Shown here: piece after piece, positions 7,896-56,217 of the stretch
Numbering within the stretch: the stretch's first letter is position 1
Layout: each line of letters starts with the position of its first letter
IMG/VR virus record: IMGVR_UViG_3300031521_000042
Coordinates: 11,883 to 75,882 of that record
Reading direction: 5' to 3' (one strand)
From: a virus
DNA length: 64,000 nt
Program-made: the position numbers and the translations under genes
Notes under the pieces: generated by a model
Database searches by the model: none
What the model saw: the letters and a program-made list of their open reading frames with translations, nothing else
Told to the model about the DNA's origin: nothing

Positions 7896-8054
7896 ATGAA
7901 AATATATAAAGTATTCAGTAGAAATAGAGCATTAAAATTAATATCTCTAGGAAATAGACTGATATATACTGAACCAAATAAAAAGAAGGCATGGTTATCA
8001 GTATTCTGTTTTGAAGATACAGATAAATTACATAAAGATTGGGACAACTTATAA
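7896..8054 (+). CDS. Small DUF5659-like protein (52 aa, not in the ORF track)
   Basis: Hand translation: MKIYKVFSRNRALKLISLGNRLIYTEPNKKKAWLSVFCFEDTDKLHKDWDNL. It follows the GIY-YIG stop directly and resembles three other small ORFs in the window. Confidence 0.7.
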   Translation: MKIYKVFSRNRALKLISLGNRLIYTEPNKKKAWLSVFCFEDTDKLHKDWDNL

Positions 8055-8089
8055 AATAAATAATCAAATAAAATCAAAGGAGAGCAAAT

Positions 8090-10861
8090 ATGGAAAATAA
8101 AAATGTTCAAATATTATCGATAGAAGGAAAAGATTTAATCACAAAAAAATATGAAGTTAACAAGAATTCTATATATAAAGCTAGTTTAGATGATGCTATG
8201 GAAGTTGATGAATTAAAAAGGTTAAATAAAAAAATAATCAGTTATAATAAAAATAAAAAAAGGTTTTACAGTGATGATATTATGACAGTCACATTTAAGT
8301 ATGCTTGTAAGCAAGAAAGAGATTTGACAGATGAAGAATATGAAAGAGTTCAAAGTTTAGAATTAACCTTACGACTATTAAATGATAAAGTAATAATAAA
8401 AGAAACAAAAGAGTTATTACAAATTGCAAAAAGAAATATAAATAAAAAATCTATTAGAGAACAGATATATAGATATGGATTCAACATATATATAAATGGA
8501 AAACTAAAGCATTTTGTAAGGTATAAAAGATCTAGTGGAAGTGCAAGAGCAGGTAAATGTTTATTTATAAATGAAAAGTATTATAAACATATGATAGATT
8601 GGTCTTTTGCAGGAATACCACATGAAGAAGATATTGAAATGGATTGTGCATCAACGGAATCTTACATTGCACTTCCAACATCATCATGTGTTGACAGATT
8701 TAGATTAAGACCAGAAAATATATTGTTAATAGAAGATGGAAAGTCAACTTTTAATAATAAAGTAATGGCTACTAGATTTATTAATGAAGAAAAAGACGAA
8801 GATGGTAATGTAATAAATGGAGACTTAGATACTAATGTAGAAGAAGCAGAAATAACTAATAAAATATGGGATGGAGAGAATTTATTAGATAGGAGTATAT
8901 TTGAAACTAAAGGATATATGCAAGGAATGATTATAAGAAATCCTTTATTTAAGAATGTATTTAAAAGATATAAAGATAAGGCTATTTTACAAGTTAGAAA
9001 TAGAATGTTTAAAGGTATAGGTGTTAATACAGATATACAACAGTTTTTCAAAGATAATGGAATAACAGATATATCACAATTAAATGGACAAACTATTGCA
9101 ACAGACATAAAACAAATCAAACTAATAACTACTCCATCAAGCGTCAAATATTTAAAATATGGTACATTTGATAATTGGTTAAAGCAAATTATATTAGAGT
9201 GGGGTATTTGTAAATATGAAAAACCTCAACATCATTTCAATGGTATGGTACAGACTCATTATCAGTTAATAAATTCACTAGGAATGAATAAAGAAACTAC
9301 ATATGACTTTCTAAAAGATACGATTAACTACATAAACTTATTAAAAACAGATACGGCAGTATTTAAATATCATTTAGGATTAACTGGAGAAAATAACAAA
9401 GAAGAATTATCTAACAATATTCAAACCAATTCAGATTTTATATTAAACATGCTAGAAATAAATGATGACTTTATAAATACAAAGATTTGTAAAAACTTTA
9501 GAAATGAAGTTGTTAAAAGTTACACAAATAATGCTCGTCATGGTCACATACTTGTAGAAGGGAATTATTCAATAGTAGTATCTTCACCCTTAGAGTTTTT
9601 AAAAGCTAGTATAGGTCAATGGAAGGGAGAAACTTTAATTCAGCCTAATGAATGTGTTAGTAGTAAGTTTGAAGTAGGGGAGGATGTTTTAGGAGTAAGA
9701 TCTCCACAACCAACTATGTGCAATATGAATGTATTTAAAAATACTAAATATAAAGAATTAGATAAGTATTTCAATACAAAAAGTCAAGAAGTTATATATA
9801 TAAGTGCTATTGGGTGGAACATATTTGAATTAGAGAGTTCTATGGATGTAGATGGGGACTCCATGATGCTAACAAATAATAAATATATAACAGAATCAGG
9901 TAAAAACTTATTAGAGAAAATAGTAATAAATAAAAAAGAAATAGATAGATTCTTAGTATCTACTGACTTTACTCCTAAGTTGAGTATAAACAGAAAATAT
10001 AATTGGAAAGACTTAGCTGATACAGATATTAAATGTAGTAGTAATAAAATAGGTGAAATAATAAATCTTGCACAAATGCTTAATAGTGTATATTGGGATA
10101 AGAAATTTAAAGGTGCTAGTGAAGAATATTTATTTTCATTATATAAGGATATTTGTCAATTAAATATTTTATCTTGTATTGAAATAGACCGTTGTAAAAA
10201 ATTGAGTCCAGTAGATGCAAAAAAAGAATTGGATAAAATAAGGAGAAAGGGATATCTAAGTCGTGGGAATATAACTAGAGAAAAAGAAAAGAAAGAAGTT
10301 GGGATTAGACCTTATTTCTTTAAGTTTTTAGATGGGGGAAAGGATTATAAATTTAAAAAGTTTCATACAGGCATGGATTATTTAGAAGAAGTTTTAGATG
10401 ATTATGTTAAAAGAAAAGATGAAAATAGTTATGACGTACCTTTAGTAGACGTATTGGAAAAACAAAAAATAAATAAACAAGATAATAAAATAATAGATAA
10501 AATAAAAAAGAAAAGTAAAGAATTAAAATATCACCAAGCTAAAATATGGAATAGCGAATGTGAAAACAAATGGGAACTAAATAAAGACTTACACGATTCA
10601 ATATTAAATGATATAAAAAAAATACAAATATACCCATCTACCATATACACTATCTTATTGAGAATACATAAATCATTTACTAGCAATAAATATGACGAAT
10701 ATAAACAAATAGGAAAAAGGATAATGACCTTATTATATGAGTCTAATAAATTTGAATTTATAAAATGTATAAAAATAAATACTAAAAATAAGTCATTTAT
10801 AATTGAAACAGATGATGGAAATATAAATTTATATGGGATAAATTTTGAAAAAATAGGCTAA
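8090..10861 (+). CDS. yonO: YonO-like single-subunit DNA-dependent RNA polymerase (cellular RdRP-related fold)
   Basis: 923 aa; RSSGSARAGKCLFI, IWDGE, QVRNRMFKG, THYQLINSL, VRSP, catalytic SMDVDGD (about 9842-9859), IGEIINLAQ, IEIDRCKK. It lies upstream of HU and the late genes, as in SPbeta. Confidence 0.88.
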   Translation: MENKNVQILSIEGKDLITKKYEVNKNSIYKASLDDAMEVDELKRLNKKIISYNKNKKRFYSDDIMTVTFKYACKQERDLTDEEYERVQSLELTLRLLNDKVIIKETKELLQIAKRNINKKSIREQIYRYGFNIYINGKLKHFVRYKRSSGSARAGKCLFINEKYYKHMIDWSFAGIPHEEDIEMDCASTESYIALPTSSCVDRFRLRPENILLIEDGKSTFNNKVMATRFINEEKDEDGNVINGDLDTNVEEAEITNKIWDGENLLDRSIFETKGYMQGMIIRNPLFKNVFKRYKDKAILQVRNRMFKGIGVNTDIQQFFKDNGITDISQLNGQTIATDIKQIKLITTPSSVKYLKYGTFDNWLKQIILEWGICKYEKPQHHFNGMVQTHYQLINSLGMNKETTYDFLKDTINYINLLKTDTAVFKYHLGLTGENNKEELSNNIQTNSDFILNMLEINDDFINTKICKNFRNEVVKSYTNNARHGHILVEGNYSIVVSSPLEFLKASIGQWKGETLIQPNECVSSKFEVGEDVLGVRSPQPTMCNMNVFKNTKYKELDKYFNTKSQEVIYISAIGWNIFELESSMDVDGDSMMLTNNKYITESGKNLLEKIVINKKEIDRFLVSTDFTPKLSINRKYNWKDLADTDIKCSSNKIGEIINLAQMLNSVYWDKKFKGASEEYLFSLYKDICQLNILSCIEIDRCKKLSPVDAKKELDKIRRKGYLSRGNITREKEKKEVGIRPYFFKFLDGGKDYKFKKFHTGMDYLEEVLDDYVKRKDENSYDVPLVDVLEKQKINKQDNKIIDKIKKKSKELKYHQAKIWNSECENKWELNKDLHDSILNDIKKIQIYPSTIYTILLRIHKSFTSNKYDEYKQIGKRIMTLLYESNKFEFIKCIKINTKNKSFIIETDDGNINLYGINFEKIG

Positions 10862-11388: not shown

Positions 11389-11955
11389 ATGTATTGCAAA
11401 ATATGTAAGAAAGAAAAATTAGAACAAACATTTTACAAAGGATTTAAAGAATGTAAAGATTGTTTAAAAGAGCATCTAAATAAATTACCTAATACCGTAA
11501 CTTATGAAAAAGTAAAAGAGTTATTACAAAATAATAACTATGTTGTTAATGAAGAATTGTTACATAGTATTTTCTTTAGTGATGAAGATAATGTAAGAGA
11601 AAAAAATAATATTGGTAGATTAGGTCATTATTTAAAGGATATAAATACTCTTCCACAATATAATAAATATAGAATTAAAGTTGTTGAAAAATCAGATATA
11701 GAATTTATAAATGATGATATTAAACAATTAAAAAAGAATATAGAAAAAGCAATTCAAAAAGAAGATTTTAATGCTCATAATAAATGGATGAATTGTTTAA
11801 GAGATGCTATTGAATTAAGAGAAACATTACTAGGAGGTAGTAAATATACTATTAATCTAGGTACTGTTAATGTAAATAGTAATAATGGTATAGAGTTTTT
11901 AAATGAGGTACTTGAATTAGCCAATCAGAAAGCAAGTTTAAAAAGTTATAAATAA
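11389..11955 (+). CDS. Zn-finger protein paralogous to the N-terminal domain of the putative small terminase
   Basis: CKIC..FY..CKDCL and YLKDINTLPQY match CTKC..FY..CKDCL and YIKTINSLKNY of ORF 22624. Confidence 0.6.
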   Translation: MYCKICKKEKLEQTFYKGFKECKDCLKEHLNKLPNTVTYEKVKELLQNNNYVVNEELLHSIFFSDEDNVREKNNIGRLGHYLKDINTLPQYNKYRIKVVEKSDIEFINDDIKQLKKNIEKAIQKEDFNAHNKWMNCLRDAIELRETLLGGSKYTINLGTVNVNSNNGIEFLNEVLELANQKASLKSYK

Positions 11956-12491: not shown

Positions 12492-12503
12492 TAAAGATAT
12501 TTA

Positions 12504-12545: not shown

Positions 12546-12623
12546 ACAACAAATTAATATAAAAATAAAAGGTTAAAATAATAATATGGTAGTTAGACTA
12601 CTGGGTGGAAGTGGGTAAAAATT

Positions 12624-14946: not shown

Positions 14947-15029
14947 AAACTGCATGAAGTAGAAAATGGTTCTCTACACACTCGAAAGAGTATCTGAGAT
15001 GATGGATACACCGACCATCCATGCAGTTT
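14947..15029 (+). ncRNA. Candidate cloverleaf-like ncRNA (element B)
   Basis: 10-bp closing helix aaactgcatg/catgcagttt with three hairpin arms, including actc-GAAA-gagt. Confidence 0.6.
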
Positions 15030-15492: not shown

Positions 15493-15580
15493 GTAGGATT
15501 GGGTGAGTGGCTTAAACCGTTTGTTTGCTAAACAAACGTACAAATATGTACCACAGGTTCAAATCCTGTATCCTACGCCA
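15493..15580 (+). tRNA. tRNA-Ser (GCT)
   Basis: Acceptor stem GTAGGAT/ATCCTAC + G + CCA; D-arm GGTGAGTGGCTTAAACC; anticodon arm TTTGT-TTGCTAA-ACAAA; long variable arm; T-arm ACAGG-TTCAAAT-CCTGT. Confidence 0.95.
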
Positions 15581-19144: not shown

Positions 19145-19525
19145 ATGAAATTAGCAAATGGAATACAATTTAATGATGGTACAAATTTAGAAGATTTTAA
19201 AGCACAAGTAGACTCACTTTCGGGTGTACCAATTGAAGGTTCAAGTAATACAGATACATCTTATGTAGATAATAAAATATGTGAGGTTAAGTCTGAAATT
19301 GAAACTGAAGTAAAATCAGTAGATGCTAAAATAGAAGAACTTAAAACTACTATAGCTGGAATATCTATACCTGATATTAGTGGACTTGTGAAGGAAGAAG
19401 ATGTAGATAGTAAAATTGCTACAGTTGTTGCTAGTTTGAATCAATTGATTGCTGATTTACAAAGTGGTAAATACAATGTTGGAGTTGCTAGTACAGTTAC
19501 AGATGTGAGTGCTACACCACAATAA
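19145..19525 (+). CDS. Hypothetical coiled-coil protein
   Basis: ORF with strong SD aggagg. Confidence 0.65.
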   Translation: MKLANGIQFNDGTNLEDFKAQVDSLSGVPIEGSSNTDTSYVDNKICEVKSEIETEVKSVDAKIEELKTTIAGISIPDISGLVKEEDVDSKIATVVASLNQLIADLQSGKYNVGVASTVTDVSATPQ

Positions 19526-19812
19526 TTGAACAATTGGATTATACTCTACGAGGTTGTCATGCTAAAGCATGATTTGTTGTGTCGTAATCATAGATTACTT
19601 ACAACATAAAATTAATTTAATATGGTTTTTAAGGTGGCTAGATGATTAATTGTCTAGTCTCTTTTTATTATTTTGATTTAATGGAATTTATCTATATGGT
19701 AGGTTGCTAAAACAAAATAAAATAATAAAGTATTGTAAAAGATTAATTTGTATGGTAATATTTATGTATAACCATACTTTAATAAAATAATATAGAATAT
19801 AGTAAGGAGTAG

Positions 19813-20016
19813 ATGATAATGGAAACAAAAAGAAAAAGTAAAATTTACAGGTGTAAATCACCAAATCAGAAGGCATATATAATGTCACAAGGAATAGAAT
19901 ATCTAGATGTAATTGAGGATAAAAACAATATTACAATATGGTTATTCTTAAAGTGTGATGAATTAGACAAGGTATTAACACAATGGTCTAATAATAATCC
20001 TAACAAACGTAATTAG
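19813..20016 (+). CDS. Small DUF5659-like protein
   Basis: Pattern IYRCKSPNQKAYIMSQGIEY..WLFLKCDELDKVLTQW. Confidence 0.65.
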   Translation: MIMETKRKSKIYRCKSPNQKAYIMSQGIEYLDVIEDKNNITIWLFLKCDELDKVLTQWSNNNPNKRN

Positions 20017-20040
20017 TTGAGTTAGGAGGTAGAATATAGT

Positions 20041-20643
20041 ATGGTTAAAAAGTTAGATCAAGCGAATATATTAAAACAGAAAGAAATTTTAAGTAAATTA
20101 ATAGATATAAATACAGAAGTGCTTTCTGAATATGAAGCACAAAACATATTAATGGAGGCTATGAGAAAAGTAAAAGAAGAAAATAACTTTGAAAACTTCG
20201 CAATGGTTTCATTTGTTAAAGATGATACTCTAGTAAAATGGAAAAGTAATGCTAAAAGTGAAAGTGATTATTTTGTAAAGATATTCTTCAATGAAATAAA
20301 GTATGCTAAAGACACTTATGGATTAACAAATCTTGAGGTGTTTTTTTTATATGAAATTTCAGAATATCTATCATGGGAAGAAAATTTATTAATTGATAAT
20401 GAAGGATTACCACTTAATCAGAAAAGACTATGTGACATTACTGGAATGGATAGAAAGAAAGCTTATAAATGTACTAAATCATTAGAAGAAAAGAAATGCT
20501 TATTGAGAATTTTTGACGGAAAAGATGTTTATTATTTAATCAATCCAAACTTAGTATTTAAAGGTCAAAAGATTAATAAAGGAATACCTAAAATATTTGA
20601 AATGATAGGATACGTAGATAGTAAGAAAGCAAAGAAACAATAA
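20041..20643 (+). CDS. RepL-like winged-HTH protein
   Basis: LNQKRLCDITGMDRKKAYKCTKSLEEKKCL..YYLINPNLVFKG resembles Firmicute plasmid RepL/HTH proteins. Confidence 0.6.
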   Translation: MVKKLDQANILKQKEILSKLIDINTEVLSEYEAQNILMEAMRKVKEENNFENFAMVSFVKDDTLVKWKSNAKSESDYFVKIFFNEIKYAKDTYGLTNLEVFFLYEISEYLSWEENLLIDNEGLPLNQKRLCDITGMDRKKAYKCTKSLEEKKCLLRIFDGKDVYYLINPNLVFKGQKINKGIPKIFEMIGYVDSKKAKKQ

Positions 20644-20688
20644 GAAGTAAAATAAAATATGTGAGTTATATAGCTATATTAGATGACT

Positions 20689-20780
20689 TTACGTGGGGTA
20701 ATATTCCTACATGTAAGGTTTAAAAAGTATAGTGTTTTTGTCGTGTATTTTTATGCGTAGGGTAATTTTACCACACGTAA
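20689..20780. repeat. Pair of related imperfect palindromes
   Basis: ttacgtggggtaatattcctacatgtaa (20689-20716) and ttatgcgtagggtaattttaccacacgtaa (20751-20780). Confidence 0.6.
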
Positions 20781-20822
20781 ATAAAAGTTGAAAATAGTAT
20801 TTGTAGAAAGAAGGAATTAATA

Positions 20823-22577
20823 ATGGGTAAAAAATTAACAATAAAAGAAATAAAATATTATATAGAAATTGAAAGTAATAGTGGATGTAAATTACTATCT
20901 ACAGAATATAAAGGGAGTAAAGAAAAACTAGATATTCAATGTAAATGTGGGGAGATATTCCAAATATCATTAGAAAAATTTAAATATCAAAACAAAAGAC
21001 AATGTAATAAATGCTCGGGTATAATTAAATGGAATATTAATTCAGTAAGAGAATACATAGAAGGTAATTCTGATTGCAAATTGTTATCTAATGAATATAT
21101 AAATTATGATACTAAATTAAAGCTATTATGTTCATGTGGTGAAGAATTTTACATATCTTTTGATAAATTTAAACAAGGAAAACACGCATGTAATAATTGT
21201 TCTAATAAATTATCACATGATAAACAAAGATTTACATATAAAGAGATTAAAGAATATATAGAGAATAATTCAGAATGTAAGGTATTGTCAAAAGAATATA
21301 AAGGTGCACATGATGACTTAAAATTACAATGCAATTGTGGAGATACATTTTATAGAAGTCTTAACAATTTTAAAAGTTCTAAACATAATTTATGTCCAAA
21401 ATGTACACAAGAAATAATAACAAATTATCATAGATTAGATTATAAAGAAGTTAAAAATTACATAGAAAGTTTTGGTTGTAAATTAATATCAGAAACATAT
21501 GTAAATAATCAAATGCCATTAGAAATACAATGTGAATGTGGAGAGTTGTTCAAAAGAAGTTTAGACGTATTTAAACGAAATGATTCTTGTCATTGTGAAA
21601 AGTGTTCTAATATTATTTCTTCAAATAAAAGAAGATATGGTTATGAATATATCTATAATTTCATAAAAGAAACAGGATGTGAATTATTAACAGAATATAA
21701 AGAAAACATTACATTAGACGAAAAATTAAAAATAAAATGTCATTGTGGAAATATATTTTATACAAGATTTGCAGATTTTAAAAGAAAGAAAATTAAACAA
21801 TGCAATGTCTGTTCAGGAATACTTGAAATAGATATAAATTATGTAAAAAATTTTGTTGAAAATAATTCAAATTGTGAACTATTAAGTGATATTTATAATA
21901 ATATGAATGACAAACTAGATTTCAAATGTGAATGTGGTGAAATATTTGCTACTACATTTTCAGCTTTTAAACTTGCAAATCAGCGACAATGTAAAAAATG
22001 TGGATATTTAATTACTGCAAGTAAAATGAAATTAAGTTATGAAGAAGTAAAAAGAAGAATAGAAATTAAAGGCAATGAATTATTAAGTACGGAATATAAA
22101 AACAACAATACAAAATTAAAGCTAAAATGTAAGTGTGGTGAAATATTTTATAGAAAATTAGATAATTATATGAATGGTTCAGACTGTTGTGATTATTGTA
22201 ATAAAAGTAAAGGAGAAAAAGAATGCTATAAGGTATTAGAAAAATATAATATAACATTTAAACAACAAGAAACGTTTGAAGGATGTAAAGGAAATAGAAA
22301 ATTATTACCTTTTGATTTTTCTGTATATATTAATAATAAATTAAAATTTTTAATAGAATATCAAGGTGAACAACACTATAGATATGTTCCTCAATTTCAT
22401 AGAAATGAAAAAGGTTTTGAAAAACAATTAGATTATGATAATAGAAAAAGAATATATTGTAAAAACAATAATATTGAATTATTAGAAATTCCTTATTGGG
22501 ATTTTAATAATATTGAAGATATATTGTTAGAAAAATTAAATATTATAGAAGAGTTAAAAGAAGTTATTAGTATTTAG
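20823..22577 (+). CDS. Free-standing endonuclease: seven tandem Zn-binding repeats plus a Vsr/DUF559-like PD-(D/E)XK domain
   Basis: Seven copies of about LLS.EY...KL...CxCG..F...F.....CxxC; C-terminal SKGE..LPFDF..IEYQGEQH..D..K..YC..LLEIPYW. Confidence 0.75.
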   Translation: MGKKLTIKEIKYYIEIESNSGCKLLSTEYKGSKEKLDIQCKCGEIFQISLEKFKYQNKRQCNKCSGIIKWNINSVREYIEGNSDCKLLSNEYINYDTKLKLLCSCGEEFYISFDKFKQGKHACNNCSNKLSHDKQRFTYKEIKEYIENNSECKVLSKEYKGAHDDLKLQCNCGDTFYRSLNNFKSSKHNLCPKCTQEIITNYHRLDYKEVKNYIESFGCKLISETYVNNQMPLEIQCECGELFKRSLDVFKRNDSCHCEKCSNIISSNKRRYGYEYIYNFIKETGCELLTEYKENITLDEKLKIKCHCGNIFYTRFADFKRKKIKQCNVCSGILEIDINYVKNFVENNSNCELLSDIYNNMNDKLDFKCECGEIFATTFSAFKLANQRQCKKCGYLITASKMKLSYEEVKRRIEIKGNELLSTEYKNNNTKLKLKCKCGEIFYRKLDNYMNGSDCCDYCNKSKGEKECYKVLEKYNITFKQQETFEGCKGNRKLLPFDFSVYINNKLKFLIEYQGEQHYRYVPQFHRNEKGFEKQLDYDNRKRIYCKNNNIELLEIPYWDFNNIEDILLEKLNIIEELKEVISI

Positions 22578-22623
22578 TGACTTTTATTATTGTGTAAAAA
22601 AATTAGGTAGGTGAGAAAATATA

Positions 22624-24000
22624 ATGGCGGATTTTAAGACAAAAGACTTGGATGAACAGATGAAAGGAAAAACAAGATGTACTAAATGTGGAACAATACT
22701 TAGTAATACAAATAATTTCTATACGTCCAGTTCAAAATTACATACTCATACTGGAAGAGTATCCTTATGCAAAGATTGCTTGACTAATCTTTATGTATCA
22801 CTTTTAGAAGAGACTAATGATATAAAAACATCAATATATAAAATATGTGAGTTAATGGATTTTGTATACCTTGAGGGAATATATAATAGCTCATTAACTG
22901 AAGCAGGATGGAATAAAGATTTTACTATAGTTCAAAATGGATTAGAAGTATGGAAGAAGTATATAAAGACTATAAACTCACTTAAAAATTATAAAGGATA
23001 CGCATTTGAACATGGAGATAAAATTGATTTAGGGACAAGTATTATTGAGAATAATATTGCTGAAGAAAAAGAAAAAAGTTTAACTATTTCTCGACCTAAA
23101 GAATTATCAGATGAAGATTTAGAACAAAAAGTTAGAGATAAACAAAATAAAGAAGATATAATCAGAATAATTGGATATGACCCTTTTCAACATGAAACAG
23201 AAGAAGATAAATCAAAAATGTATGCTAAGTTAATCAACATGTTAGATGAAGACAGTCAAAATGACGAGCTTAAAAATAGTGCCATAATAAGTATTATAAA
23301 AGGTCAAAACCAAGAAAATAAAATAAATGATGTTATAACAAGTTTAAGTTCTGATATAAAAAGTATAAAAGATAATATTGGAACTATTAAAAGTTTGACA
23401 GATACTAAGGAAAAGTTAAATAAGAGTTTATTAGCTTTGGCAAAAGATAATAAGATTAGTGATTTATATAGTGGTCATAAAACGGTAGGAGCAAATACTT
23501 TAACAGGTATGGTTAAAAAGTTAAAAGAAATAGACTTAAAAGAAGCACAGGTTAATTTATTTGATATTCAAACTTCTAATGGTATGTTACAAACTGCAAG
23601 ACTATCTGCAAAAGCGATTGTAGAAAATCTTAATTTTGGTGATGATGATTTAATAGATATGGTAAAATTTCAAAACGAAAAGATAGGTTTTTATGAACAG
23701 GAATATAGTAAATTAAGAGAAGAAAATAGAAAATTAAAAGCAATTTGTTCTTTCAATGATGTAGATTACAAACAAGATATATTAGTAGAAACAGAATATT
23801 ACGATGCTTTAGACTATGGAGACATAAAAGATAAACAGGAGTCTATTCAAAAACAAAACTATAAAGACGATTTAGAAAGTTTTAATAATATGGTTGAGAA
23901 AATAATACCTGTCGACACTATAGAATATATTGATAATGTCATTGAAAACAAAAAAGAAATTGAAAAACAAAAAATACTAGATAGTGTTATAAGTGAATAA
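22624..24000 (+). CDS. Putative terminase small subunit (YonG-like)
   Basis: N-terminal CxxC..CKDC zinc finger, helical body, position upstream of the large terminase as in SPbeta-like phages. Confidence 0.55.
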   Translation: MADFKTKDLDEQMKGKTRCTKCGTILSNTNNFYTSSSKLHTHTGRVSLCKDCLTNLYVSLLEETNDIKTSIYKICELMDFVYLEGIYNSSLTEAGWNKDFTIVQNGLEVWKKYIKTINSLKNYKGYAFEHGDKIDLGTSIIENNIAEEKEKSLTISRPKELSDEDLEQKVRDKQNKEDIIRIIGYDPFQHETEEDKSKMYAKLINMLDEDSQNDELKNSAIISIIKGQNQENKINDVITSLSSDIKSIKDNIGTIKSLTDTKEKLNKSLLALAKDNKISDLYSGHKTVGANTLTGMVKKLKEIDLKEAQVNLFDIQTSNGMLQTARLSAKAIVENLNFGDDDLIDMVKFQNEKIGFYEQEYSKLREENRKLKAICSFNDVDYKQDILVETEYYDALDYGDIKDKQESIQKQNYKDDLESFNNMVEKIIPVDTIEYIDNVIENKKEIEKQKILDSVISE

Positions 24001-24481
24001 AGGAGAATATGTGATGGAAGATGATAGATATATTATATTTGAAGTATTAATTGAATATGAAATTGATGGAATAAAGAAATATAATGCTACAAGTTTAAGT
24101 GATTGTATGAATGGGAAATCAGTTGAAGAATGTACTGAAATTGCAGAAAAATTTTGCAGAGATATGGAAACTAAATATAATAATAAAAAATGGATTTTGT
24201 GTGGTCATAATATGATTGATATGTCTAAAAAATTAAGACATGAAAGTTTTAAATTGAAACAAGAAAAATGTTTAGTAGTGTATCAAAATACAGAAAGTTT
24301 GAATAATGATATTATAAAATCTTTGTATGACAAATATGAAGTGAGTGTGATTCATAAAGATAAATTTAAATTAATAACTCATTGTTGTTATGTAAGAGAA
24401 TTATATATAGAAAATGGGATTGACATTGATAAAAATTATCTATTATCATTTTTATCAAATAATAAAATAAAATACTTTTAA
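23993..24481 (+). CDS. Hypothetical protein
   Basis: ORF; the start is probably ATG 24014, after SD aaggag. Confidence 0.55.
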   Translation: MNKGEYVMEDDRYIIFEVLIEYEIDGIKKYNATSLSDCMNGKSVEECTEIAEKFCRDMETKYNNKKWILCGHNMIDMSKKLRHESFKLKQEKCLVVYQNTESLNNDIIKSLYDKYEVSVIHKDKFKLITHCCYVRELYIENGIDIDKNYLLSFLSNNKIKYF

Positions 24482-24513
24482 AATAAAATATATTATGTTA
24501 TTATTATATTGAG

Positions 24514-24696
24514 GTGAAAATTATGAAGCAATATACAATTATTAGAAATAAATACTTAGCTGAAGGATTGGCATTTTGTAATTTTAAATATCAAAAATAT
24601 CAGGATGATGGAGTTACAGTTTATAGTTTTGAGGAAACAGACAAATTAAAAGAAGCAATTAGTGTAATTACAAATATAAAAAAGAATAACCAATAA
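24514..24696 (+). CDS. Small DUF5659-like protein
   Basis: Pattern IIRNKYLAEGLAFCNFKY..VYSFEETDKLKEAI. Confidence 0.65.
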   Translation: MKIMKQYTIIRNKYLAEGLAFCNFKYQKYQDDGVTVYSFEETDKLKEAISVITNIKKNNQ

Positions 24697-24725
24697 AAAG
24701 GTTGCAATTATGAGGAGGAACAATT

Positions 24726-25931
24726 ATGAGTAAAAAATGGACTAGCGAGGAAATTAATATTGTAAAAGAAAATTATGAGATAATGTCTAATGAAGACATT
24801 ATAAATAAGTTTAATATCCAAAGAACAAGTAATCAGATAATGGATTATGCAAGTACAAAATTAGGTTTACACAAACCAAAAGGATTAAAAACAAAGAATA
24901 GAGGATGGTCAAAAGAAGATGATTTATATTTAACAAAAGTATATGCGTATGAAAATAAATATATCATTATGAGTAAGTTAAATAAAGAGTGGGCAACTGT
25001 AAGGGCTAGAGCTATAAAATTAAAACTATCAAGAAGTAATGAATGGAAAGATGAAGAAATTTATTTATTGCATAAGTTTTATCCATATATGAAAACAGAA
25101 GATTTTAAAGAAAAGTACTCCATAAATAGAGAAGTAGCTAGCATAAATATGAAAGCCAATAGTTTGAATATTTATAAAGATGAAGTATATTTAGAAAAAA
25201 TGAGAAAATTGGTAGGTATAAACAACCTATCTTGTATAGGAGATACTTCTGGAGAAAATAATGCTAGATGGAAAGATAGAATGATAGTCAAATGTGATAC
25301 CTGTGGTAAAGATATTGAAAAGCAACAACACTTATTAACAAAATATAAAAGATTCTTTTGTTGTCAAGAATGTTTGTCAATAGGCAGAAAGAAATTTAAT
25401 AAAGGAGAAAATAACCCTAATTTTGCTAATGGAAAAGCTTGGAGTAAAGAAATGAGATTAAAAATGGCTAAAATATCTACAAGAAGAATAGTCAACAAGG
25501 AGTATAGTTTTACCGAAACAAAACCACAATTGATTATAAATAATATTTTAAATGAAATGAGTATAAAATACACCAATGAATATGACTGCAAATATTATGC
25601 TATGGATAATTATTTAACAGAATCTAATTTAATGATAGAAGTTCAAGGTAATTTCTTTCATTGTAATCCAACGATGAATTATAAAAATAGTAGAGAAGTT
25701 AAAATAAAGGCAAAAGATAAAAGTAAGCATACCTATGTCAAAAAGTATTATGAAGTAGAAATATTATATTTGTGGGAATACGATATAATAAACAATATTG
25801 ATTTATGTAAAATGTTAATACAAGAATATATAAACAATAAAGGAAAATTAAATAATTATCATAGTTTTAATTATTGTTTTGAAAATAATAAATTAATAGA
25901 GTTAGAAAATAAATATGTAATAGGATATTAA
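24726..25931 (+). CDS. Endonuclease with Myb/SANT-like repeats, Zn finger and Vsr-like domain
   Basis: Repeats WTSEE/WSKED/WKDEE; CDTCG..CCQEC; ETKPQ..MDNY..IEVQGNFFH..DKSK..LYLWEYDI. Confidence 0.7.
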   Translation: MSKKWTSEEINIVKENYEIMSNEDIINKFNIQRTSNQIMDYASTKLGLHKPKGLKTKNRGWSKEDDLYLTKVYAYENKYIIMSKLNKEWATVRARAIKLKLSRSNEWKDEEIYLLHKFYPYMKTEDFKEKYSINREVASINMKANSLNIYKDEVYLEKMRKLVGINNLSCIGDTSGENNARWKDRMIVKCDTCGKDIEKQQHLLTKYKRFFCCQECLSIGRKKFNKGENNPNFANGKAWSKEMRLKMAKISTRRIVNKEYSFTETKPQLIINNILNEMSIKYTNEYDCKYYAMDNYLTESNLMIEVQGNFFHCNPTMNYKNSREVKIKAKDKSKHTYVKKYYEVEILYLWEYDIINNIDLCKMLIQEYINNKGKLNNYHSFNYCFENNKLIELENKYVIGY

Positions 25932-26021
25932 ATAAGCTTTAATGATTGTGAGTATGGTAACATACTCTTTTTTGTTGTGTAAAAACAAACTTCATTGATA
26001 TAAAAAGGGAGGTGGTCTTTT

Positions 26022-27897
26022 ATGTCCATCACAGTGATAAACAAAGGTAATTTAACTCAAAAAAAGTTAGAAGGGTATTTAAAATATAATGAAATACTAA
26101 ACTGGGGAAGAAGAAATCCAGTAAAATTTGCAGAACTGATTCTTGGACTTGAATGAGTTAATGGATTATCAAAAATATACATTTCAAGAATCATGGAGTA
26201 AACAATTTGCATTATGGTTGATGTCCCGTAATGGTGGAAAAAGTACGCTCAGTTCTCCATTTATAATGACAAAAATGATGTTATTTCCTAATTTTCAAAG
26301 TTTTATATTATCATTAACTGCGAGTCAAAGCCAAGATACGTTTTTGAAAATGGAGTCTATAGCTAAAAAGCAAATAGAATCTTTTTGTGGGTTAACCGAT
26401 ATATTCTTAGGAGAAGTATCATCTAGTGCAAACCATGACGGATTCGTACACTCGCCCCAAGGATTTCGTTGTAAACTATTTAACAATAGTCAAGTCACTA
26501 CTGTTTCTGGAGAAGAAGATAATATTAGGGGGAAAAGATCGAATTTAAATTTATATGATGAGAGTGGATTTATTAGTGAAAATTATATTTCTGTAACTAA
26601 ATCGTTTTGCACACAGGATTCGTCATTTAAGTTGGGTGGAGGTGTAAATACTGAAACTATTCCAATGAATATTCCTAATCAATTGTTATTTTGTTCATCT
26701 GCTAGTAGTACCGATTCAGCTTTTTATACATTATATAAAGAATGGGCAAAGCTAATGTTTGCAGGAAGTAAAGACCATTTCGTAGCTGATTTAAATTGTG
26801 AAGTTATAATAGGAGCTACATTAAAAGGTAAAAAACTAAATATACCATTATTATCACAATCTAAAGTAGATGATGAAATAAGGTCAAACTCTGAGAAAGC
26901 AAATCGAGAATATTTTAATAAATTCGATGCCGATGGAGGAAATCAACAAAAGATAAAACGAGCAGTAATCATAAAAAATTCAAAAATAAGAAGACCTTTA
27001 TTACTTAATGAAGGAGATATAAATAGACACATTATTTTGGCTTATGATCCTGCACACGATTATGACAATGCAGTTGTATCAGTAGGAGAATATATTTATG
27101 ACGAACAAGTAGGGTGGAAGTTAATAATTCAAAACTGTGTAACTCTTGTAGATATAGGTAAAAAGAAAAAAACTCCAATGAGAACACCAGAACAAATAGA
27201 AGAAATAAAGCAAATGTTAATAAATTATAATGGCAAAGGTTTTGCAGATTACGAAAATATAGATGCGTTATTAGTTGATGCAGGAGCAGGTGGCGGTGGT
27301 GCTTTAATTGCAGATTATTTTATGGAAGATTGGAAAGATAAACAAGGACGTCAACATAGAGGATTAATTGATAACGAAGCTTGTGCTGAACATGTAGACA
27401 AATATCCAAATGCTGTAGATAAGTTAAAATTAATATCTCCTAAAAAATATAGAACTGAAATGTATGATGATTTTATAGAATTATTAAATTTAGGATTAAT
27501 TGAATTTACAGATACATATGATATGAAAGGCTATTTAAATTTATCACAAGAAGGAAAAGAAATAGAAGAAATTGATGAGGAGACAAATGAAAAGAAAAAA
27601 GTTAAATCAATAGATTATAAGAAATACAATCTTTCGTGGGATGAAGAATTAGCTTTAAAACAAATAGACATAGCAAAAGAAGAATTAATTGCAACTAGAA
27701 GATTAGGTGATAACACAAATTACAAATATGATTTATCTCCTGATAAAAAAAATAAGATGCATGATGACAGAGCTTACACCATGGTAATGCTTGCTTGGCA
27801 CTTGAAAAAACTAAGAAGAGAAAATATTACAAATAAACAAGTAGAAGATGGTGATTGGAATGATGCACCGTCATTCGTAACATCATATACTGTCTAA
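26022..27897 (+). CDS. terL: Terminase large subunit (YonF-like), frameshifted near its 5' end
   Basis: SD gggagg with ATG 26022 gives MSITVINKGNLTQKKLEGYLKYNEILNWGRRNPVKFAELILGLE, ending at TGA 26154-26156. The +1 frame continues LMDYQKY with Walker A SRNGGKS, Walker B NLYDESG and nuclease motifs AYDPA and HDDRAY. Confidence 0.85.
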
Positions 27898-52058: not shown

Positions 52059-52068
52059 ATAAAATAAA

Positions 52069-52440: not shown

Positions 52441-52456
52441 AAAGGAGAGTGAAAAA

Positions 52457-52903: not shown

Positions 52904-52931
52904 TAAATAAATTATAAAAGAAAAGAGGTGA

Positions 52932-53999: not shown

Positions 54000-54028
54000 A
54001 AATTAAAGAAGGAGGGTAATTATGAAAT

Positions 54029-54688
54029 ATGAGTAATAATACAATAACAGAAAGTCAAATAAATGAGTATTCTATAGATTTAACAAAATATGTTCCTAAA
54101 ATTATTTCTAAAGATCCTATTACTTCAAAAGTTTTTTATGCTCAAGGTCGTCAGATAAGTACAATTAATTATTACATACAGGATTTGATTAATCAGTGTT
54201 TTATTTCAACAGCCACATGGTCGTTAGATATTTGGGAATCTGAATATGGAATCCAAACAGACTCTACTTTATCTTATGAAAATAGGAGACAAACAATATT
54301 AGCAAAAAAACGTGGATTTGGTACAGTTAATGAGGCTAAAATCAAAAGTATTGCCGAGGCATATAATTGTGACTGTGAAGTAATTCCACATTGGGATGAA
54401 TATTATTTCATTATAAAATTTATAGGTTTAGGAGTTCCTTCAAATTTGGATATTTTTAAACAAATTATAGAACAAATTAAACCAGCACATTTAAATGTTG
54501 AATATCAATTTACTTATGAACAATGGAATGAAGTTTTGGATGGATATACTTGGCAAAATATTTTAGATAGTGGGTACACATGGGATGACGTATTGAATAA
54601 ACCACTTAGAACTAGCAACCAAATAATGTATTCTTTAAATTCAGATGGAAATACATATAGTGAAATAAAATATGAAATAGTAGAATAA
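54029..54688 (+). CDS. XkdU/YmfQ (DUF2313)-like baseplate protein
   Basis: FISTATWSLDIWE..YG, RRQTILAK.RG.GT, IKPAHL. Confidence 0.85.
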   Translation: MSNNTITESQINEYSIDLTKYVPKIISKDPITSKVFYAQGRQISTINYYIQDLINQCFISTATWSLDIWESEYGIQTDSTLSYENRRQTILAKKRGFGTVNEAKIKSIAEAYNCDCEVIPHWDEYYFIIKFIGLGVPSNLDIFKQIIEQIKPAHLNVEYQFTYEQWNEVLDGYTWQNILDSGYTWDDVLNKPLRTSNQIMYSLNSDGNTYSEIKYEIVE

Positions 54689-54704
54689 ATCAAAATAGGA
54701 GTGA

Positions 54705-54905
54705 TTGAAAATGAACGACCATAGAAAAACTAAATTTGACAAAGAATATTCTACTCAATGGAATGCAGAAAGAGATTATCTTGAAAAACAAGGTATCAAT
54801 TATAAATTTGTTAAAGAAATAAATGGAATATCAACATATAAGTATGTTAAGAACTCAGAGTTATTTAAGGCTTTGAGTTCTTTTTATATGGAATTAAATA
54901 TGTAA
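54705..54905 (+). CDS. Small DUF5659-like protein
   Basis: EYSTQWNAERDYLEKQGINYKFVK..TYKYVKNSELFKALSSFY. Confidence 0.65.
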   Translation: MKMNDHRKTKFDKEYSTQWNAERDYLEKQGINYKFVKEINGISTYKYVKNSELFKALSSFYMELNM

Positions 54906-54945
54906 TTAAAACAAATTGAATGATTGAAAGGAAAGTGATTATATA

Positions 54946-56217
54946 ATGAAACAAAAAGAAATTAAATTGAAATACGAAATCGGACAAAGGATTCAAGGTA
55001 ATAAGCGAAACATTACAATTACTAATATAAAAGTAATACAAGAAGAAAGAATAGATAAAAAAGGAAGAAAAAGTATAGCTAATTTAAAATATTATAAATA
55101 TACTTGTAATTTATGTAGTTTTGAATGTGGTAAGCATTGGAGTATTAAAAATAGAGAGTATAAGGATGAATATTGGATTAGAGAAGACCATTTAATTGGT
55201 GGTACATATTGTTCATGCTGTTCGCCTAATCCAAATATAGTAGTTCAAGGAATAAATGATATATTAATTACACATCCATATTTGGTTAAGTATTTTAAAA
55301 ATATTGAAGATGTGTATACTCATTCATATGCGAGTAATAAAGAGGTTTGGATGAAATGTCCTGATTGTGGCAATGAGAAAAAATCGAATATAGTGAATTT
55401 ATATAAACAGGGTTTTAATTGCAAAAAATGTTCTGATGAAATAAAATATCCGAATAAATTCGCTTTTAAGATGTTTGAAGAATTACGAATAGACTTTATA
55501 CCTGAATACTCACCTGATTGGATAGGACGAAAAAGATATGATTTTTATTTTGAACTAAATGATAAGCAATACATACTAGAAATGGATGGTGGATTTCATA
55601 ATAATGACAACAAAATGAGTGGACAAACTAAGGAAGAATCACAAGTTATAGATGATTATAAAGATGAAATGGCTAATAAACAGAATATTGAGGTTATTAG
55701 GATCGATTGTGATTATCCCAATATTGAAACTAGATTTAAATTTATTAAGAATAATATATTACAGAACGATAAATTAAATGAATTATTTGATTTAAGTCTA
55801 GTAGATTTTAATAAATGTAATGAATATTCATTATCTAATCTAATTAAAATTGCCTGTGAGTACAAAATGAATAATCCTAATATAACCACTACTGAAGTTG
55901 GTAAAATAATGGGATATCATCGTGATTCAATTAGAAATTGGTTAAAAATAGGAATGAAATTCGGATGGTGTTCTTACAATGCTGATGATGAAGCATTAAA
56001 AAATAGAAATATCAATCATTCAAAAAATAAAGAAAGATATTCTAAACCTATAGAAATATTTAAAAATGGAATATCTAAAGGAATATTTGAATCATCTAGT
56101 GAATTAGATAGAAAATCCGAAGAATTATTTGAAACTAAATTAGATTTTAGAAATATATCTGCCGTTTGTTTAGGCAAGTTAAAAATGTATAAAGGATATA
56201 CGTTTAAATTTGTATAA
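54946..56217 (+). CDS. Endonuclease with Zn ribbons, Vsr-like domain and NUMOD1-like tail
   Basis: CNLC..CSCC, CPDCG..CKKC; RYDFYF..ILEMDGGFH..VIRIDC; ISAVCLGK...YKGYTFKF. Confidence 0.7.
   Translation: MKQKEIKLKYEIGQRIQGNKRNITITNIKVIQEERIDKKGRKSIANLKYYKYTCNLCSFECGKHWSIKNREYKDEYWIREDHLIGGTYCSCCSPNPNIVVQGINDILITHPYLVKYFKNIEDVYTHSYASNKEVWMKCPDCGNEKKSNIVNLYKQGFNCKKCSDEIKYPNKFAFKMFEELRIDFIPEYSPDWIGRKRYDFYFELNDKQYILEMDGGFHNNDNKMSGQTKEESQVIDDYKDEMANKQNIEVIRIDCDYPNIETRFKFIKNNILQNDKLNELFDLSLVDFNKCNEYSLSNLIKIACEYKMNNPNITTTEVGKIMGYHRDSIRNWLKIGMKFGWCSYNADDEALKNRNINHSKNKERYSKPIEIFKNGISKGIFESSSELDRKSEELFETKLDFRNISAVCLGKLKMYKGYTFKFV

What the first reader, a model, noticed from the sequence alone, without database searches (positions are those of the whole stretch)
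7896..56217. Four diverged DUF5659-like mini-genes, each next to a different free-standing endonuclease gene
Seen: 52-67 aa ORFs sharing a loose pattern (short strand, helix with A/Y..L...G, then [VWY]x[FY]...[DE]L) at 7896 (right after the GIY-YIG gene, before yonO), 19813 (before RepL-like HTH and the 7-repeat Vsr-like nuclease), 24514 (directly before the Myb-repeat Vsr-like nuclease, in the terminase locus) and 54705 (directly before the Zn-ribbon Vsr-like nuclease, in the baseplate locus). Four of the five endonuclease loci carry one. Inference: a two-gene mobile unit in which the small protein is a regulator, inhibitor/immunity factor or targeting partner of the nuclease. I know of no described function for this pairing. 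The DUF5659 call is by eye.
Basis: partly seen in the sequence, partly recalled or inferred. Interest (0 to 1): 0.75.

Follow-up and report, generated by a model that had tools for sequence, protein, structure and literature searches.

The report
Small DUF5659 genes preceding phage homing endonucleases
In this AT-rich large phage and its relatives, a family of roughly 55-residue basic proteins of unknown function (DUF5659) lies directly in front of selfish DNA-cutting genes about seven times more often than chance, so many of these nucleases appear to exist as two-gene modules, although only two of the four pairs flagged here are clearly such modules.

Summary
All four small ORFs exist at the stated coordinates. 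A (7896-8054), B (19813-20016) and C (24514-24696) belong to one family, DUF5659. D (54705-54905) is a separate conserved family whose kinship to DUF5659 is only hinted at.

The nuclease link is real but uneven.
- C lies inside a 1.9-kb insert (162-aa ORF + C + nuclease) that is missing from a close relative.
- D plus its nuclease recurs in at least three or four unrelated contexts, with homology starting at D's ribosome-binding site.
- A is the conserved leader of the yonO-like RNA polymerase gene. A GIY-YIG-like nuclease gene sits directly in front of it here and is absent in relatives.
- B directly precedes a RepL-like gene, not the nuclease.

In 46 nuclease-ascertained virus records (3.3 Mb) I found 56 DUF5659-like matches.
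- Coordinate test: 29 lie directly upstream of a Vsr-like, GIY-YIG or HNH gene and 2 downstream. Random placement gives 4.2 +/- 1.9 upstream.
- Three more upstream cases came from annotating neighbours.
- Only about 15% of the nuclease genes carry one. Other copies precede helicase, primase and replication-initiator genes.

The small gene is more conserved than its nuclease, and in one case the nuclease ORF alone was swapped. Function is unknown. No paper in the library mentions DUF5659. First readers of this scan noted the same pairing in two other genomes.

The parts
808..1860 (+). HNH endonuclease gene, the fifth nuclease locus, with no DUF5659-like neighbour
   Evidence: phrog_953 'HNH endonuclease', E 2e-61. 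No DUF hit nearby. No small + strand ORF in 560-830.
6134..7894 (+). GIY-YIG-like free-standing endonuclease gene placed directly upstream of A
   Evidence: phrog_7168 'homing endonuclease', E 4.8e-7. I-TevI catalytic domain 1LN0, E 0.029 over about 100 residues. GIY...YIG motif visible in alignment A12. Pfam GIY-YIG gives no match. Absent upstream of the A homologues in L032 and L033; L031 keeps a short remnant.
7896..8054 (+). A: DUF5659 gene, conserved leader of the yonO-like gene
   Evidence: PF18903 23.6 bits. 31.9 bits with its own relatives left out. Directly upstream of the yonO-like gene in L031, L032, L033, L035 and L036. DNA homology to L031-L033 starts at 7894-7896.
8090..10861 (+). 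yonO-like 923-aa gene, the conserved downstream partner of A
Evidence: phrog_8308, E 2e-85. Homologues at 31-67% identity follow the A homologues.
19813..20016 (+). B: DUF5659 gene, first gene of a variable three-gene block
   Evidence: PF18903 27.1 bits. phrog_21297, E 2.8e-10. AF2 model pLDDT 84 with strand-helix-strand-strand-helix order. Two terminator-like hairpins lie in the 287-nt spacer upstream.
20041..20643 (+). RepL-like winged-helix gene between B and the nuclease
   Evidence: Pfam RepL 22.1 bits, above its cut-off. DUF-like genes also directly precede replication-initiator-like genes in L034 and L149.
20823..22577 (+). Vsr-like endonuclease gene with zinc-ribbon repeats
   Evidence: phrog_559, E 3e-104, and phrog_9084 'homing endonuclease'. 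Core aligned in A8. The block 19796-22533 is replaced by other gene sets in L039 and L049.
24001..25929 (.). 1.9-kb insert relative to the close relative L039: 162-aa ORF, C and nuclease
   Evidence: blastn: window 22534-24000 aligns to L039 5224-6680 (88%) and window 25930-27858 to L039 6778-8718 (84%). Only 97 bp lie between these blocks in L039.
23993..24481 (+). 162-aa ORF of unknown function, first gene of the insert
   Evidence: No Pfam or PHROG hit. Absent from L039.
24420..24449 (+). Promoter-like site 64 nt upstream of C
   Evidence: TTGACA-18-TATCAT, 11 of 12, the best match in 19400-26200. This is a consensus match only. Other DUF genes show no such excess.
24514..24696 (+). C: DUF5659-family gene directly upstream of a nuclease gene
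   Evidence: PF18903 15.7 bits, below the cut-off. 29.6 bits (E 9e-9) against a profile of 104 representatives not similar to C. 29-nt spacer with a GGAGG ribosome-binding site. C-like genes precede Myb-repeat HNH nuclease genes in L049 and L156.
24726..25931 (+). Myb-repeat endonuclease gene with a Vsr-like C-terminal core
   Evidence: N-terminal phrog_323 match. C-terminal residues 267-360 fit the Vsr-like profile, but as one of its three seeds, and are aligned in A8. No Pfam or PDB sequence hit for the core.
54705..54905 (+). D: small gene of a separate conserved family (FDKEYSTQW motif), possibly a distant DUF5659 relative, directly upstream of a nuclease gene
   Evidence: 28 related viral loci. 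No PF18903 hit. Weak links. Followed by Vsr-like nuclease genes in L003, L004, L005 and L146, and by an HNH-like gene in L018.
54849..54882 (+). 14-bp hairpin plus T-run inside the 3' end of D, about 60 nt before the nuclease start
   Evidence: Terminator-like site. Conserved in all five D-to-Vsr loci with 3 compensatory pairs. Absent from D-like genes of packaging modules.
54946..56217 (+). Zinc-ribbon endonuclease gene with a Vsr-like core
   Evidence: phrog_4538, E 3e-38, and phrog_9084 'homing endonuclease', E 4e-12. 38-42% identical to the nucleases that follow D homologues at 73-85% identity.

Best explanation
DUF5659-like genes encode basic proteins of about 55 residues with a strand-helix-strand-strand-helix fold. 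In AT-rich large phages they form the 5' gene of a recurrent two-gene module: small gene, a 17-51 nt spacer with a ribosome-binding site, then a free-standing homing endonuclease gene.

In this window:
- C + 24726-25931 and D + 54946-56217 are such modules.
- B heads a variable block (B, RepL-like gene, nuclease).
- A is not part of a nuclease module. It is the resident leader of the yonO-like gene, and a GIY-YIG-like nuclease gene lies directly in front of it.

Shown here: the family membership of A, B and C; the enrichment and its direction; the insert that contains C; the portability of D + nuclease; and the stronger conservation of the small gene than of the nuclease.

Inferred: the small protein binds nucleic acid, probably as a dimer, and restrains or tunes the product of the gene behind it, most often a nuclease. 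It would do this after transcription or at the protein level, working like an antitoxin or a controller. About half of the junctions also carry a terminator-like hairpin that would lower read-through into the nuclease gene. I put about 0.3 on this mechanistic step alone. The confidence given below is for the module reading.
For: Family:
- Pfam hits for A and B.
- Leave-own-relatives-out profiles score A 31.9, B 40.4 and C 29.6 bits.
- 173 representatives at E <= 1e-3, nearly all 50-90 aa.

Enrichment, from 46 records totalling 3.34 Mb with 56 DUF matches and 191 nuclease-domain matches:
- 29 DUF matches lie directly upstream and 2 downstream of a nuclease gene.
- Random placement with strand kept gives 4.24 +/- 1.94 upstream, with a maximum of 12 in 5000 trials.
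- An earlier tally of 24 upstream to 2 downstream gave binomial p = 1e-5.
- Three more upstream cases came from PHROG annotation.
- In 50 nuclease clusters ascertained without reference to DUF, 9 have a DUF directly upstream.

Module behaviour:
- C lies in a 1929-bp insert that is absent from L039.
- L056 has portal-[DUF-nuclease]-DUF70 where L060 has portal-DUF70.
- D + nuclease occurs in unrelated flanks, with homology limited to 54693-54944.
- L059 has two DUF-to-nuclease pairs.
- C-like genes precede Myb-repeat nucleases with three different catalytic domains.

Protein properties:
- Median pI 9.3, and 87% of representatives are above pI 8.
- Tandem two-domain forms exist.

Hairpin:
- Conserved in the D family with compensatory changes.
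- Present at 11 of 19 junctions against 26% of 146 control junctions.
Against: - Only about 15% of nuclease genes carry a DUF, so it is not needed for nuclease function in general.
- About 40% of DUF genes precede other genes: helicase x4, primase, replication initiators, yonO-like, a tyrosine recombinase in phage c-st, and packaging genes for the D-like forms.
- L124 and L133 share a 100% identical DUF and 94-97% identical flanks, but their nucleases are 36% identical. There the nuclease ORF alone is the exchanged unit.
- No DUF-nuclease fusion appears among the 150 listed of 173 profile hits.
- There is no general promoter of the module's own: the median spacer upstream of the DUF gene is about 23 nt, and promoter-like scores match controls.
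- The fold gives no functional clue. Best PDB match is Z 4.6 and Foldseek finds nothing at E <= 0.001.
- The records were chosen for carrying Vsr-like nucleases and are partly redundant.
- The DUF profile was seeded with this window's own families.
Confidence: 0.55

Rival explanations
1. Landing-pad reading. DUF5659 genes are resident accessory genes, and homing endonuclease genes of several families settle beside them. The nuclease might cut in or near the DUF gene, or the DUF borders might be recombination hot spots. The small protein would have nothing to do with the nuclease.
For: - The nuclease ORF alone is exchanged behind an identical DUF in L124 and L133.
- DUF genes are far more conserved than their nucleases: 75-100% against 35-41% identity.
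- A is resident with the yonO-like gene and has a nuclease gene directly in front. L056 and the L100 group also have a nuclease directly upstream of a resident DUF.
- Many DUF genes have no nuclease beside them.
- T4 free-standing endonucleases sit next to the conserved gene they cut, and different endonucleases can replace one another at one site (PMC2988022).
Against: - The nuclease-free allele at the TerS-like/TerL junction has no DUF at all.
- D + nuclease share homology from D's ribosome-binding site onward in unrelated flanks.
- The 29:2 upstream bias is not expected of a mere target.
- At least four unrelated nuclease families would need to converge on highly diverged DUF DNA, since A, B and C are only 14-24% identical in alignment A7.
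Confidence: 0.2
2. General leader-gene reading. DUF5659 proteins are small regulators or leader ORFs for many DNA-transaction genes. Homing endonucleases are simply the most numerous such genes in these nuclease-rich phages.
For: Downstream partners include helicase x4, primase, replication initiators x3, a methyltransferase-like gene, the yonO-like gene x6, a tyrosine recombinase, and the gene in front of TerL. These records hold one nuclease-domain match per about 17 kb.
Against: About 60% of DUF genes precede nuclease genes, which are only a few per cent of all genes. Nuclease modules with a DUF also lie in structural regions: the baseplate locus here, and after the portal gene in L056 and L059. 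The enrichment was not tested against a null restricted to DNA-metabolism genes.
Confidence: 0.15
3. Coincidence of hot spots. Small accessory ORFs and endonuclease genes both accumulate in the same plastic intergenic regions, so the adjacency has no functional or mechanistic meaning.
For: - Both lie at module boundaries and in variable slots, such as 19796-22533.
- PeSL-type cassettes shuffle small ORFs in T4-type phages (PMC2839356).
- My permutation null ignores gene structure.
Against: - One protein family supplies the upstream neighbour in 9 of 50 independent nuclease clusters.
- The direction is 29 upstream to 2 downstream.
- Spacers are a uniform 17-51 nt with a ribosome-binding site.
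- The D hairpin shows covariation.
Confidence: 0.07

Closest known systems
Free-standing homing endonuclease genes of T4-type phages (seg and mob genes; Edgell et al. 2010, PMC2988022)
   Same: - Nuclease genes of GIY-YIG and HNH type sit between conserved genes.
- They are variably present among close relatives.
- They can be replaced by other nucleases at the same site.
- They are embedded in host operons.
- Expression is limited by terminators, RNA hairpins near the ribosome-binding site, and translational coupling.
   Different: No conserved small protein-coding partner appears in the passages of that review that I read. Here one small-protein family precedes about 15% of the nuclease genes, across Vsr-like, GIY-YIG and two HNH groups. 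The phages are AT-rich (27% GC) and large, and the affinity to Clostridium phages is suggested only by a weak hit to phage c-st.
Controller (C) proteins of restriction-modification systems (from my own knowledge, not checked in papers here)
   Same: A small gene lies directly upstream of, and co-oriented with, an endonuclease gene. One small-protein family is combined with unrelated nucleases. The expected role is to delay or limit nuclease expression.
   Different: C proteins are helix-turn-helix repressor-activators acting on operators at their own promoter. DUF5659 has no helix-turn-helix in the model. Most DUF genes lie 8-25 nt behind the preceding gene and show no promoter excess.
Type II toxin-antitoxin operons (from my own knowledge)
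   Same: The gene order is small basic protein first and potentially toxic nuclease second, with a short spacer. Small-gene and nuclease families are mixed and matched. The small gene is the better conserved of the two.
   Different: There is no evidence of binding or neutralisation. At 55 residues there is little room for both a DNA-binding and a toxin-binding part. Most nuclease genes lack the small gene, and many DUF genes precede non-toxic genes.
PeSL mobile regulatory cassettes of T4-type phages (Arbiol et al. 2010, PMC2839356)
   Same: Short conserved units with a stem-loop terminator lie at the borders of shuffled accessory genes. The D module likewise carries a conserved hairpin plus T-run, and it is the only DNA shared between otherwise unrelated loci.
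   Different: PeSLs are non-coding promoter plus stem-loop units. The D module is a protein-coding gene. My rough estimate, not computed by any tool, is about 10 amino-acid changes among about 34 base changes against L003, which would indicate purifying selection. The module shows no promoter-like signal.

Membership tests
Pfam PF18903 (DUF5659) | Whole-protein score at or above the gathering score of 23.6 bits: ORFs A and B | tested here: met
   A scores 23.6 bits, exactly at the cut-off. B scores 27.1 bits. The six-frame search of the record gives B 25.8 and A 21.9 bits.
Pfam PF18903 (DUF5659) | Whole-protein score at or above the gathering score: ORF C | tested here: not met
   C scores 15.7 bits, E 0.013, and this is its only Pfam hit. 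I file C as a relative on the next row's evidence, not as passing Pfam's threshold.
Pfam PF18903 (DUF5659) | Significant match to a family profile built without the query's own relatives: ORFs A, B and C | tested here: met
   Profiles were built from 62-104 representatives with no BLAST similarity (E < 0.01) to the query. They score A 31.9 bits (E 2e-9), B 40.4 (E 3e-12) and C 29.6 (E 9e-9) among 397 ORFs. Caveat: the representatives were collected with a profile seeded by A, B and C.
Pfam PF18903 (DUF5659) | Sequence match of ORF D and its family to the family profile | tested here: not met
   D has no PF18903 hit. 1 of 22 family members hits it, at E 0.04. The local profile gives 6.5-12.1 bits. 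hhalign against the B family gives probability 24%, E 8e-4.
Pfam PF18903 (DUF5659) | Shared fold (strand-helix-strand-strand-helix): ORF D compared with B | tested here: inconclusive
   The B model has pLDDT 84 with elements E11-14, H17-25, E30-35, E41-46, H49-61. The D model has pLDDT 68 with H13-29, E33-39, E42-47, H51-65 and no first strand. BFVD neighbours include three DUF5659 proteins, at E 0.16-0.5.
Free-standing homing endonuclease cassette | Gene encodes a nuclease domain of a known homing-endonuclease family | tested here: met
   PHROG homing or HNH endonuclease families match 6134, 20823, 54946 and 808. For 24726 the core is supported only by alignment to the other two and by the shared D / E-x-D-G / K columns. 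Pfam DUF559 is near its cut-off in the L003 homologue, 19.1 against 20.6 bits.
Free-standing homing endonuclease cassette | Presence, absence or replacement among close relatives with conserved flanks | tested here: met
   Window against L039 at the TerS-like/TerL junction. L124 against L133. L056 against L060. A locus against L031-L033.
Free-standing homing endonuclease cassette | Site-specific cleavage of nuclease-free alleles, and homing | not testable with these tools
   This needs cleavage assays and phage crosses.
Controller (C) protein / type II antitoxin (a 'works like' comparison only) | Helix-turn-helix or ribbon-helix-helix DNA-binding fold | tested here: inconclusive
   The B model shows no helix-turn-helix. 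PDB searches list no such fold among weak matches, best Z 4.6. A missing match does not exclude it.
Controller (C) protein / type II antitoxin (a 'works like' comparison only) | Own promoter and operator directly upstream of the small gene | tested here: not met
   The median spacer to the preceding gene is about 23 nt in 21 cases. Best sigma-70-like matches follow the control distribution. Only C has an 11/12 site. Only sigma-70-type sites were scanned.
Controller (C) protein / type II antitoxin (a 'works like' comparison only) | Small protein lowers the expression or activity of the nuclease | not testable with these tools
   This needs co-expression and binding assays.

The most novel reading that the evidence does not exclude
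DUF5659 proteins are a dedicated accessory component of phage homing endonuclease genes. They would be a mix-and-match small partner that gates nuclease expression or activity, for example by binding the hairpin or ribosome-binding-site RNA, the nuclease's DNA-binding module, or its target. If so, many 'free-standing' endonucleases of Firmicute-type large phages would be two-component selfish elements, and the solitary DUF genes in front of helicase, polymerase and packaging genes would be retained or domesticated partners.
Probability: 0.3. Interest if true: 0.8.

Novelty: new variant of a known kind. Interest (0 to 1): 0.6.

Why it matters
Free-standing homing endonucleases are usually described as single-gene selfish elements whose expression is restrained by RNA structures and by the host operon. 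A conserved small protein encoded directly in front of about one in seven of them, across unrelated catalytic families, would add a component to that picture.

It would also give a first functional handle on DUF5659, a protein family that no paper in the searched library mentions. The idea is easy to test: express the nuclease with and without the small gene, and run binding assays.

It matters for phage genome annotation too. These 50-70-residue genes are often left uncalled; the copy in phage c-st is unannotated. They mark mobile nuclease modules and the variable slots around terminase, portal and polymerase genes.

Tried and rejected
Searches that gave nothing or could not run:
- The metagenome scan for the C family found nothing.
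- Viral scans for C alone and for the B family found nothing.
- tblastn of A and C against deposited phages found nothing.
No DUF-ascertained sample from bacterial genomes was therefore obtained.
- The search for nuclease-free relatives of the baseplate locus, meant as an empty-site test for D, found only 28-31% relatives. The TerL-related records lack the gp48-like gene.

Comparisons that were not decisive:
- Profile-profile comparisons of the four shallow family alignments.
- PDB fold searches with the B model, which gave only generic two-layer alpha/beta matches.
- The phmmer search of the 24726 nuclease core against PDB, which found nothing.

Ideas rejected or left open:
- 'Each module has its own promoter plus controller' is rejected as a general rule.
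- 'L039's 98-aa ORF is a DUF' is rejected by profile, E 0.15, despite a by-eye resemblance.
- 'DUF and nuclease co-diverge': the bit scores correlate only weakly (Spearman 0.30) and several pairs are discordant.
- The junction-hairpin excess is suggestive only, because five of the eleven positives are one family.

Full report
THE WINDOW
The window is bases 11883-75882 of a 75.9-kb IMG/VR virus record.
- CheckV estimates the record at 31% complete, so the phage is probably large.
- GC content is 26.7%.
- Nearly all genes lie on the + strand.

THE FOUR SMALL ORFS
- A: 7896-8054.
- B: 19813-20016.
- C: 24514-24696.
- D: 54705-54905.

HOMOLOGY
Pfam PF18903 (DUF5659) matches three of the four.
- A scores 23.6 bits, exactly the gathering score.
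- B scores 27.1 bits.
- C scores 15.7 bits (E 0.013), below the cut-off.
- D is not matched.

I searched 1.84 billion representative proteins with a profile of the A, B and C families.
- It found 173 proteins at E <= 1e-3.
- Nearly all are 50-90 residues long. A few are tandem two-domain forms.

From 129 single-domain hits I built a local profile. I then rebuilt it three times, each time removing every sequence with BLAST similarity to one query.
- A still scores 31.9 bits, B 40.4 and C 29.6 (E 9e-9).
- A, B and C are therefore one family.

D belongs to a different, well-conserved family.
- It has 28 related viral loci and an invariant FDKEYSTQW motif.
- Its links to DUF5659 are all weak:
  - 6.5-12 bits against the local profiles.
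  - hhalign E 8e-4 at 24% probability, though in register.
  - One of 22 family members touches PF18903, at E 0.04.
  - A language-model neighbour cluster in which 10% of members carry PF18903.
  - Three DUF5659 proteins among the top 11 BFVD neighbours of a pLDDT-68 model that lacks the first strand.
- I rate D's kinship at about even odds.

The B model has pLDDT 84 and the order strand-helix-strand-strand-helix. It has no significant match in the PDB. The family is basic, with median pI 9.3.

THE NUCLEASE GENES
- 20823-22577 and 54946-56217 hit PHROG homing-endonuclease families.
- Together with 24726-25931 they share a Vsr-like core with conserved D, E-x-D-G and K columns.
- 24726-25931 also has Myb-like N-terminal repeats.
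- 6134-7894 hits phrog_7168, weakly matches the I-TevI catalytic domain, and shows the GIY...YIG motif. Pfam GIY-YIG does not match it.
- The fifth nuclease gene is an HNH gene at 808-1860, with no DUF beside it.

WHAT EACH PAIR IS
A
- A's homologues lie directly in front of the yonO-like gene in five related loci. The yonO-like proteins there are 31-67% identical to the window's.
- None of those loci has the window's nuclease gene. L031 keeps a short remnant of it.
- DNA homology to L031-L033 begins exactly at A's start codon.
- A is therefore resident with the yonO-like gene, and the nuclease gene lies directly upstream of it.

B
- B directly precedes a RepL-like gene.
- The whole block 19796-22533 is a variable slot. 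Two groups of close relatives (TerL 87% identical) fill it with other gene sets:
  - L039 has a 98-aa ORF, a RepL-like gene and an HNH-like nuclease.
  - L049 has a winged-helix gene, a C-like DUF and an HNH-like nuclease.

- DUF genes also precede replication-initiator-like genes in L034 and L149.

C
- Window 24001-25929 holds a 162-aa ORF, C and the nuclease. In L039 it is replaced by 97 bp between the gene upstream of TerL (phrog_3314) and TerL itself, within flanks that are 84-88% identical.
- C is therefore absent from the nuclease-free allele.
- C-like genes directly precede Myb-repeat nucleases with other catalytic domains in L049 and L156.

D
- Homologues of D at 73-85% identity directly precede Vsr-like nucleases in L003, L004, L005 and in MT835469. 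The nucleases in L003-L005 are only 38-42% identical to the window's, and the MT835469 one resembles 20823-22577 more (30%).
- The flanking genes are unrelated, apart from L003 and L005, which are sister phages.
- DNA homology is confined to window 54693-54944, which covers D, its ribosome-binding site and the spacer.
- A D-like gene precedes an HNH-like nuclease in L018 and a DUF1064 protein in L008.
- About 17 further D-like domains form the N-terminus of 112-158-aa proteins at the head of packaging modules, with no nuclease.

STATISTICS
Nuclease-ascertained loci
- I collected 80 viral loci through the nuclease core alone.
- Among 50 nuclease clusters at 80% identity, 9 have a DUF directly upstream and 2 directly downstream.

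Whole-record test
- I searched the 46 whole records, 3.34 Mb in total:
  - DUF profile: 56 matches.
  - Vsr-like core: 110 matches.
  - Pfam GIY-YIG: 33 matches.
  - Pfam HNH_3: 19 matches.
  - An HNH-like domain found here: 26 matches.
  - The window's GIY-YIG type, which added 3 new matches.
- 31 DUF matches lie next to a nuclease gene on the same strand: 29 upstream and 2 downstream.
- By family, the upstream cases are 15 Vsr-like, 8 GIY-YIG, 3 HNH_3 and 3 HNH-like.
- Random placement with strand kept gives 4.24 +/- 1.94 upstream, with a maximum of 12 in 5000 trials.

The remaining DUF matches
- I fetched 20 of the remaining sites and annotated the genes downstream of them.
- Three more are HNH or homing endonucleases.
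- The others are four phrog_16 helicases, a primase, a replication initiator, a methyltransferase-like gene and several unknowns.
- In phage c-st an unannotated DUF-like ORF lies 72 bp before a tyrosine recombinase gene.

Overall
- About 60% of the DUF genes in these phages precede a nuclease gene.
- Only about 15% of the nuclease genes have one.

Limits of this analysis
- The records were chosen for carrying Vsr-like nucleases, and some are related to each other.
- Adjacency was judged from match coordinates and open-frame lengths.
- The null model ignores gene structure.

FEATURES THAT BEAR ON MECHANISM
- The spacer between the DUF stop and the nuclease start is 17-51 nt with a clear ribosome-binding site in most pairs.
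- The small gene is much better conserved than the nuclease.
- In L124 and L133 the DUF is 100% identical and the flanks 94-97%, but the nucleases are only 36% identical. Homology runs about 30 nt into the nuclease ORF and resumes at its stop. There the nuclease ORF alone was exchanged.
- The 3' end of D contains a 14-bp hairpin followed by a T-run (54849-54882).
  - It is conserved in all five D-to-Vsr loci, with three compensatory pairs.
  - It is absent from packaging-type D genes.
- Similar hairpins lie at 11 of 19 DUF-nuclease junctions, against 26% of 146 control junctions. Five of the eleven are one family.
- DUF genes usually follow the preceding gene by 8-25 nt and show no promoter excess. 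Only C has a strong promoter-like site, at 24420-24449.
- No DUF-nuclease fusion was listed among the profile hits.

READING
The association and its direction are solid. C and D are parts of nuclease modules, A is not, and B is uncertain.

The simplest functional reading is that the small protein is a basic, probably dimeric nucleic-acid binder. It would restrain or tune the gene product behind it, most often a nuclease, and would work like an antitoxin or a controller. This is inference.

Three rivals remain.
- Landing pad. This is supported by the nuclease swap and by the conservation asymmetry. The empty TerS-like/TerL junction and the 29:2 bias count against it.
- General leader gene for DNA-transaction genes.
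- Hot-spot coincidence.

COMPARISON WITH WHAT IS KNOWN
- T4 seg and mob genes show the same variable presence, replacement and multilayer expression control (PMC2988022). The passages I read describe no conserved small protein partner.
- PeSL cassettes are non-coding shuffling units (PMC2839356).
- No paper in the library contains 'DUF5659'.
- First readers of this scan noted the same pairing in two other genomes (e1-5951659, e1-5736437). A follow-up agent described a different small partner family elsewhere (e1-6013220). These are leads, not evidence.

Noticed in passing
window 26022-26156 and 26143-27897: The large terminase gene is read in two frames. Its N-terminus lies in a 44-aa ORF that overlaps the start of the 584-aa ORF, so a one-base shift is needed to join them. 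In L039-type relatives the break lies elsewhere (71-aa and 518-aa ORFs). An assembly error is at least as likely as programmed frameshifting.
   Followed up: partly
L049:7376-7616 and L049:8151-8454 (also L050-L055): Relatives with TerL 87% identical carry two ORF-less group I introns in the terminase gene. Rfam RF00028 scores 61.3 bits for the first (above its cut-off) and 38.4 bits for the second (below it). They sit at the sites corresponding to window 26540 and 27051. The window's TerL lacks both introns but has a free-standing nuclease gene directly upstream.
   Followed up: partly
window 19796-22533: This is a variable slot between a conserved terminator-bearing spacer (19538-19795) and the phrog_3314 gene. 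Three related phage groups fill it with three different gene sets. Each set contains a winged-helix RepL-like gene and a nuclease of a different catalytic type.
   Followed up: partly
window 14949-15027 and 15493-15577: A skipping-rope RNA (RF02924, 70.3 bits) and a tRNA gene lie in the region between 13906 and 16113.
   Followed up: no
L013-L030 (for example L013:4640-5062): The D-like domain occurs as the N-terminus of 112-158-aa proteins with an acidic tail. These lie directly in front of a phrog_3314 zinc-ribbon protein, TerL and the portal gene. This would fit a DNA-binding role in packaging, possibly as a small-terminase-like protein.
   Followed up: partly
L039:3898-5259, L049:4290-5369, L018:6146-7351: These genes share a C-terminal domain with C-x-x-C, IHH and H-x-x-F-H motifs that looks like an HNH nuclease. 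PF13392 did not match the two copies whose positions I could compare (G011, G045). The domain has 26 matches in the 46 records.
   Followed up: partly
NC_007581.1 93919-94080 (L145:3501-3662): Clostridium phage c-st has an unannotated DUF5659-like ORF 72 bp upstream of the tyrosine recombinase gene CST104.
   Followed up: no
window 11389-11955 and 22624-24000: Two genes in the window match phrog_3314. The 188-aa one matches weakly (E 7e-4). The 458-aa one lies in front of the terminase region.
   Followed up: no
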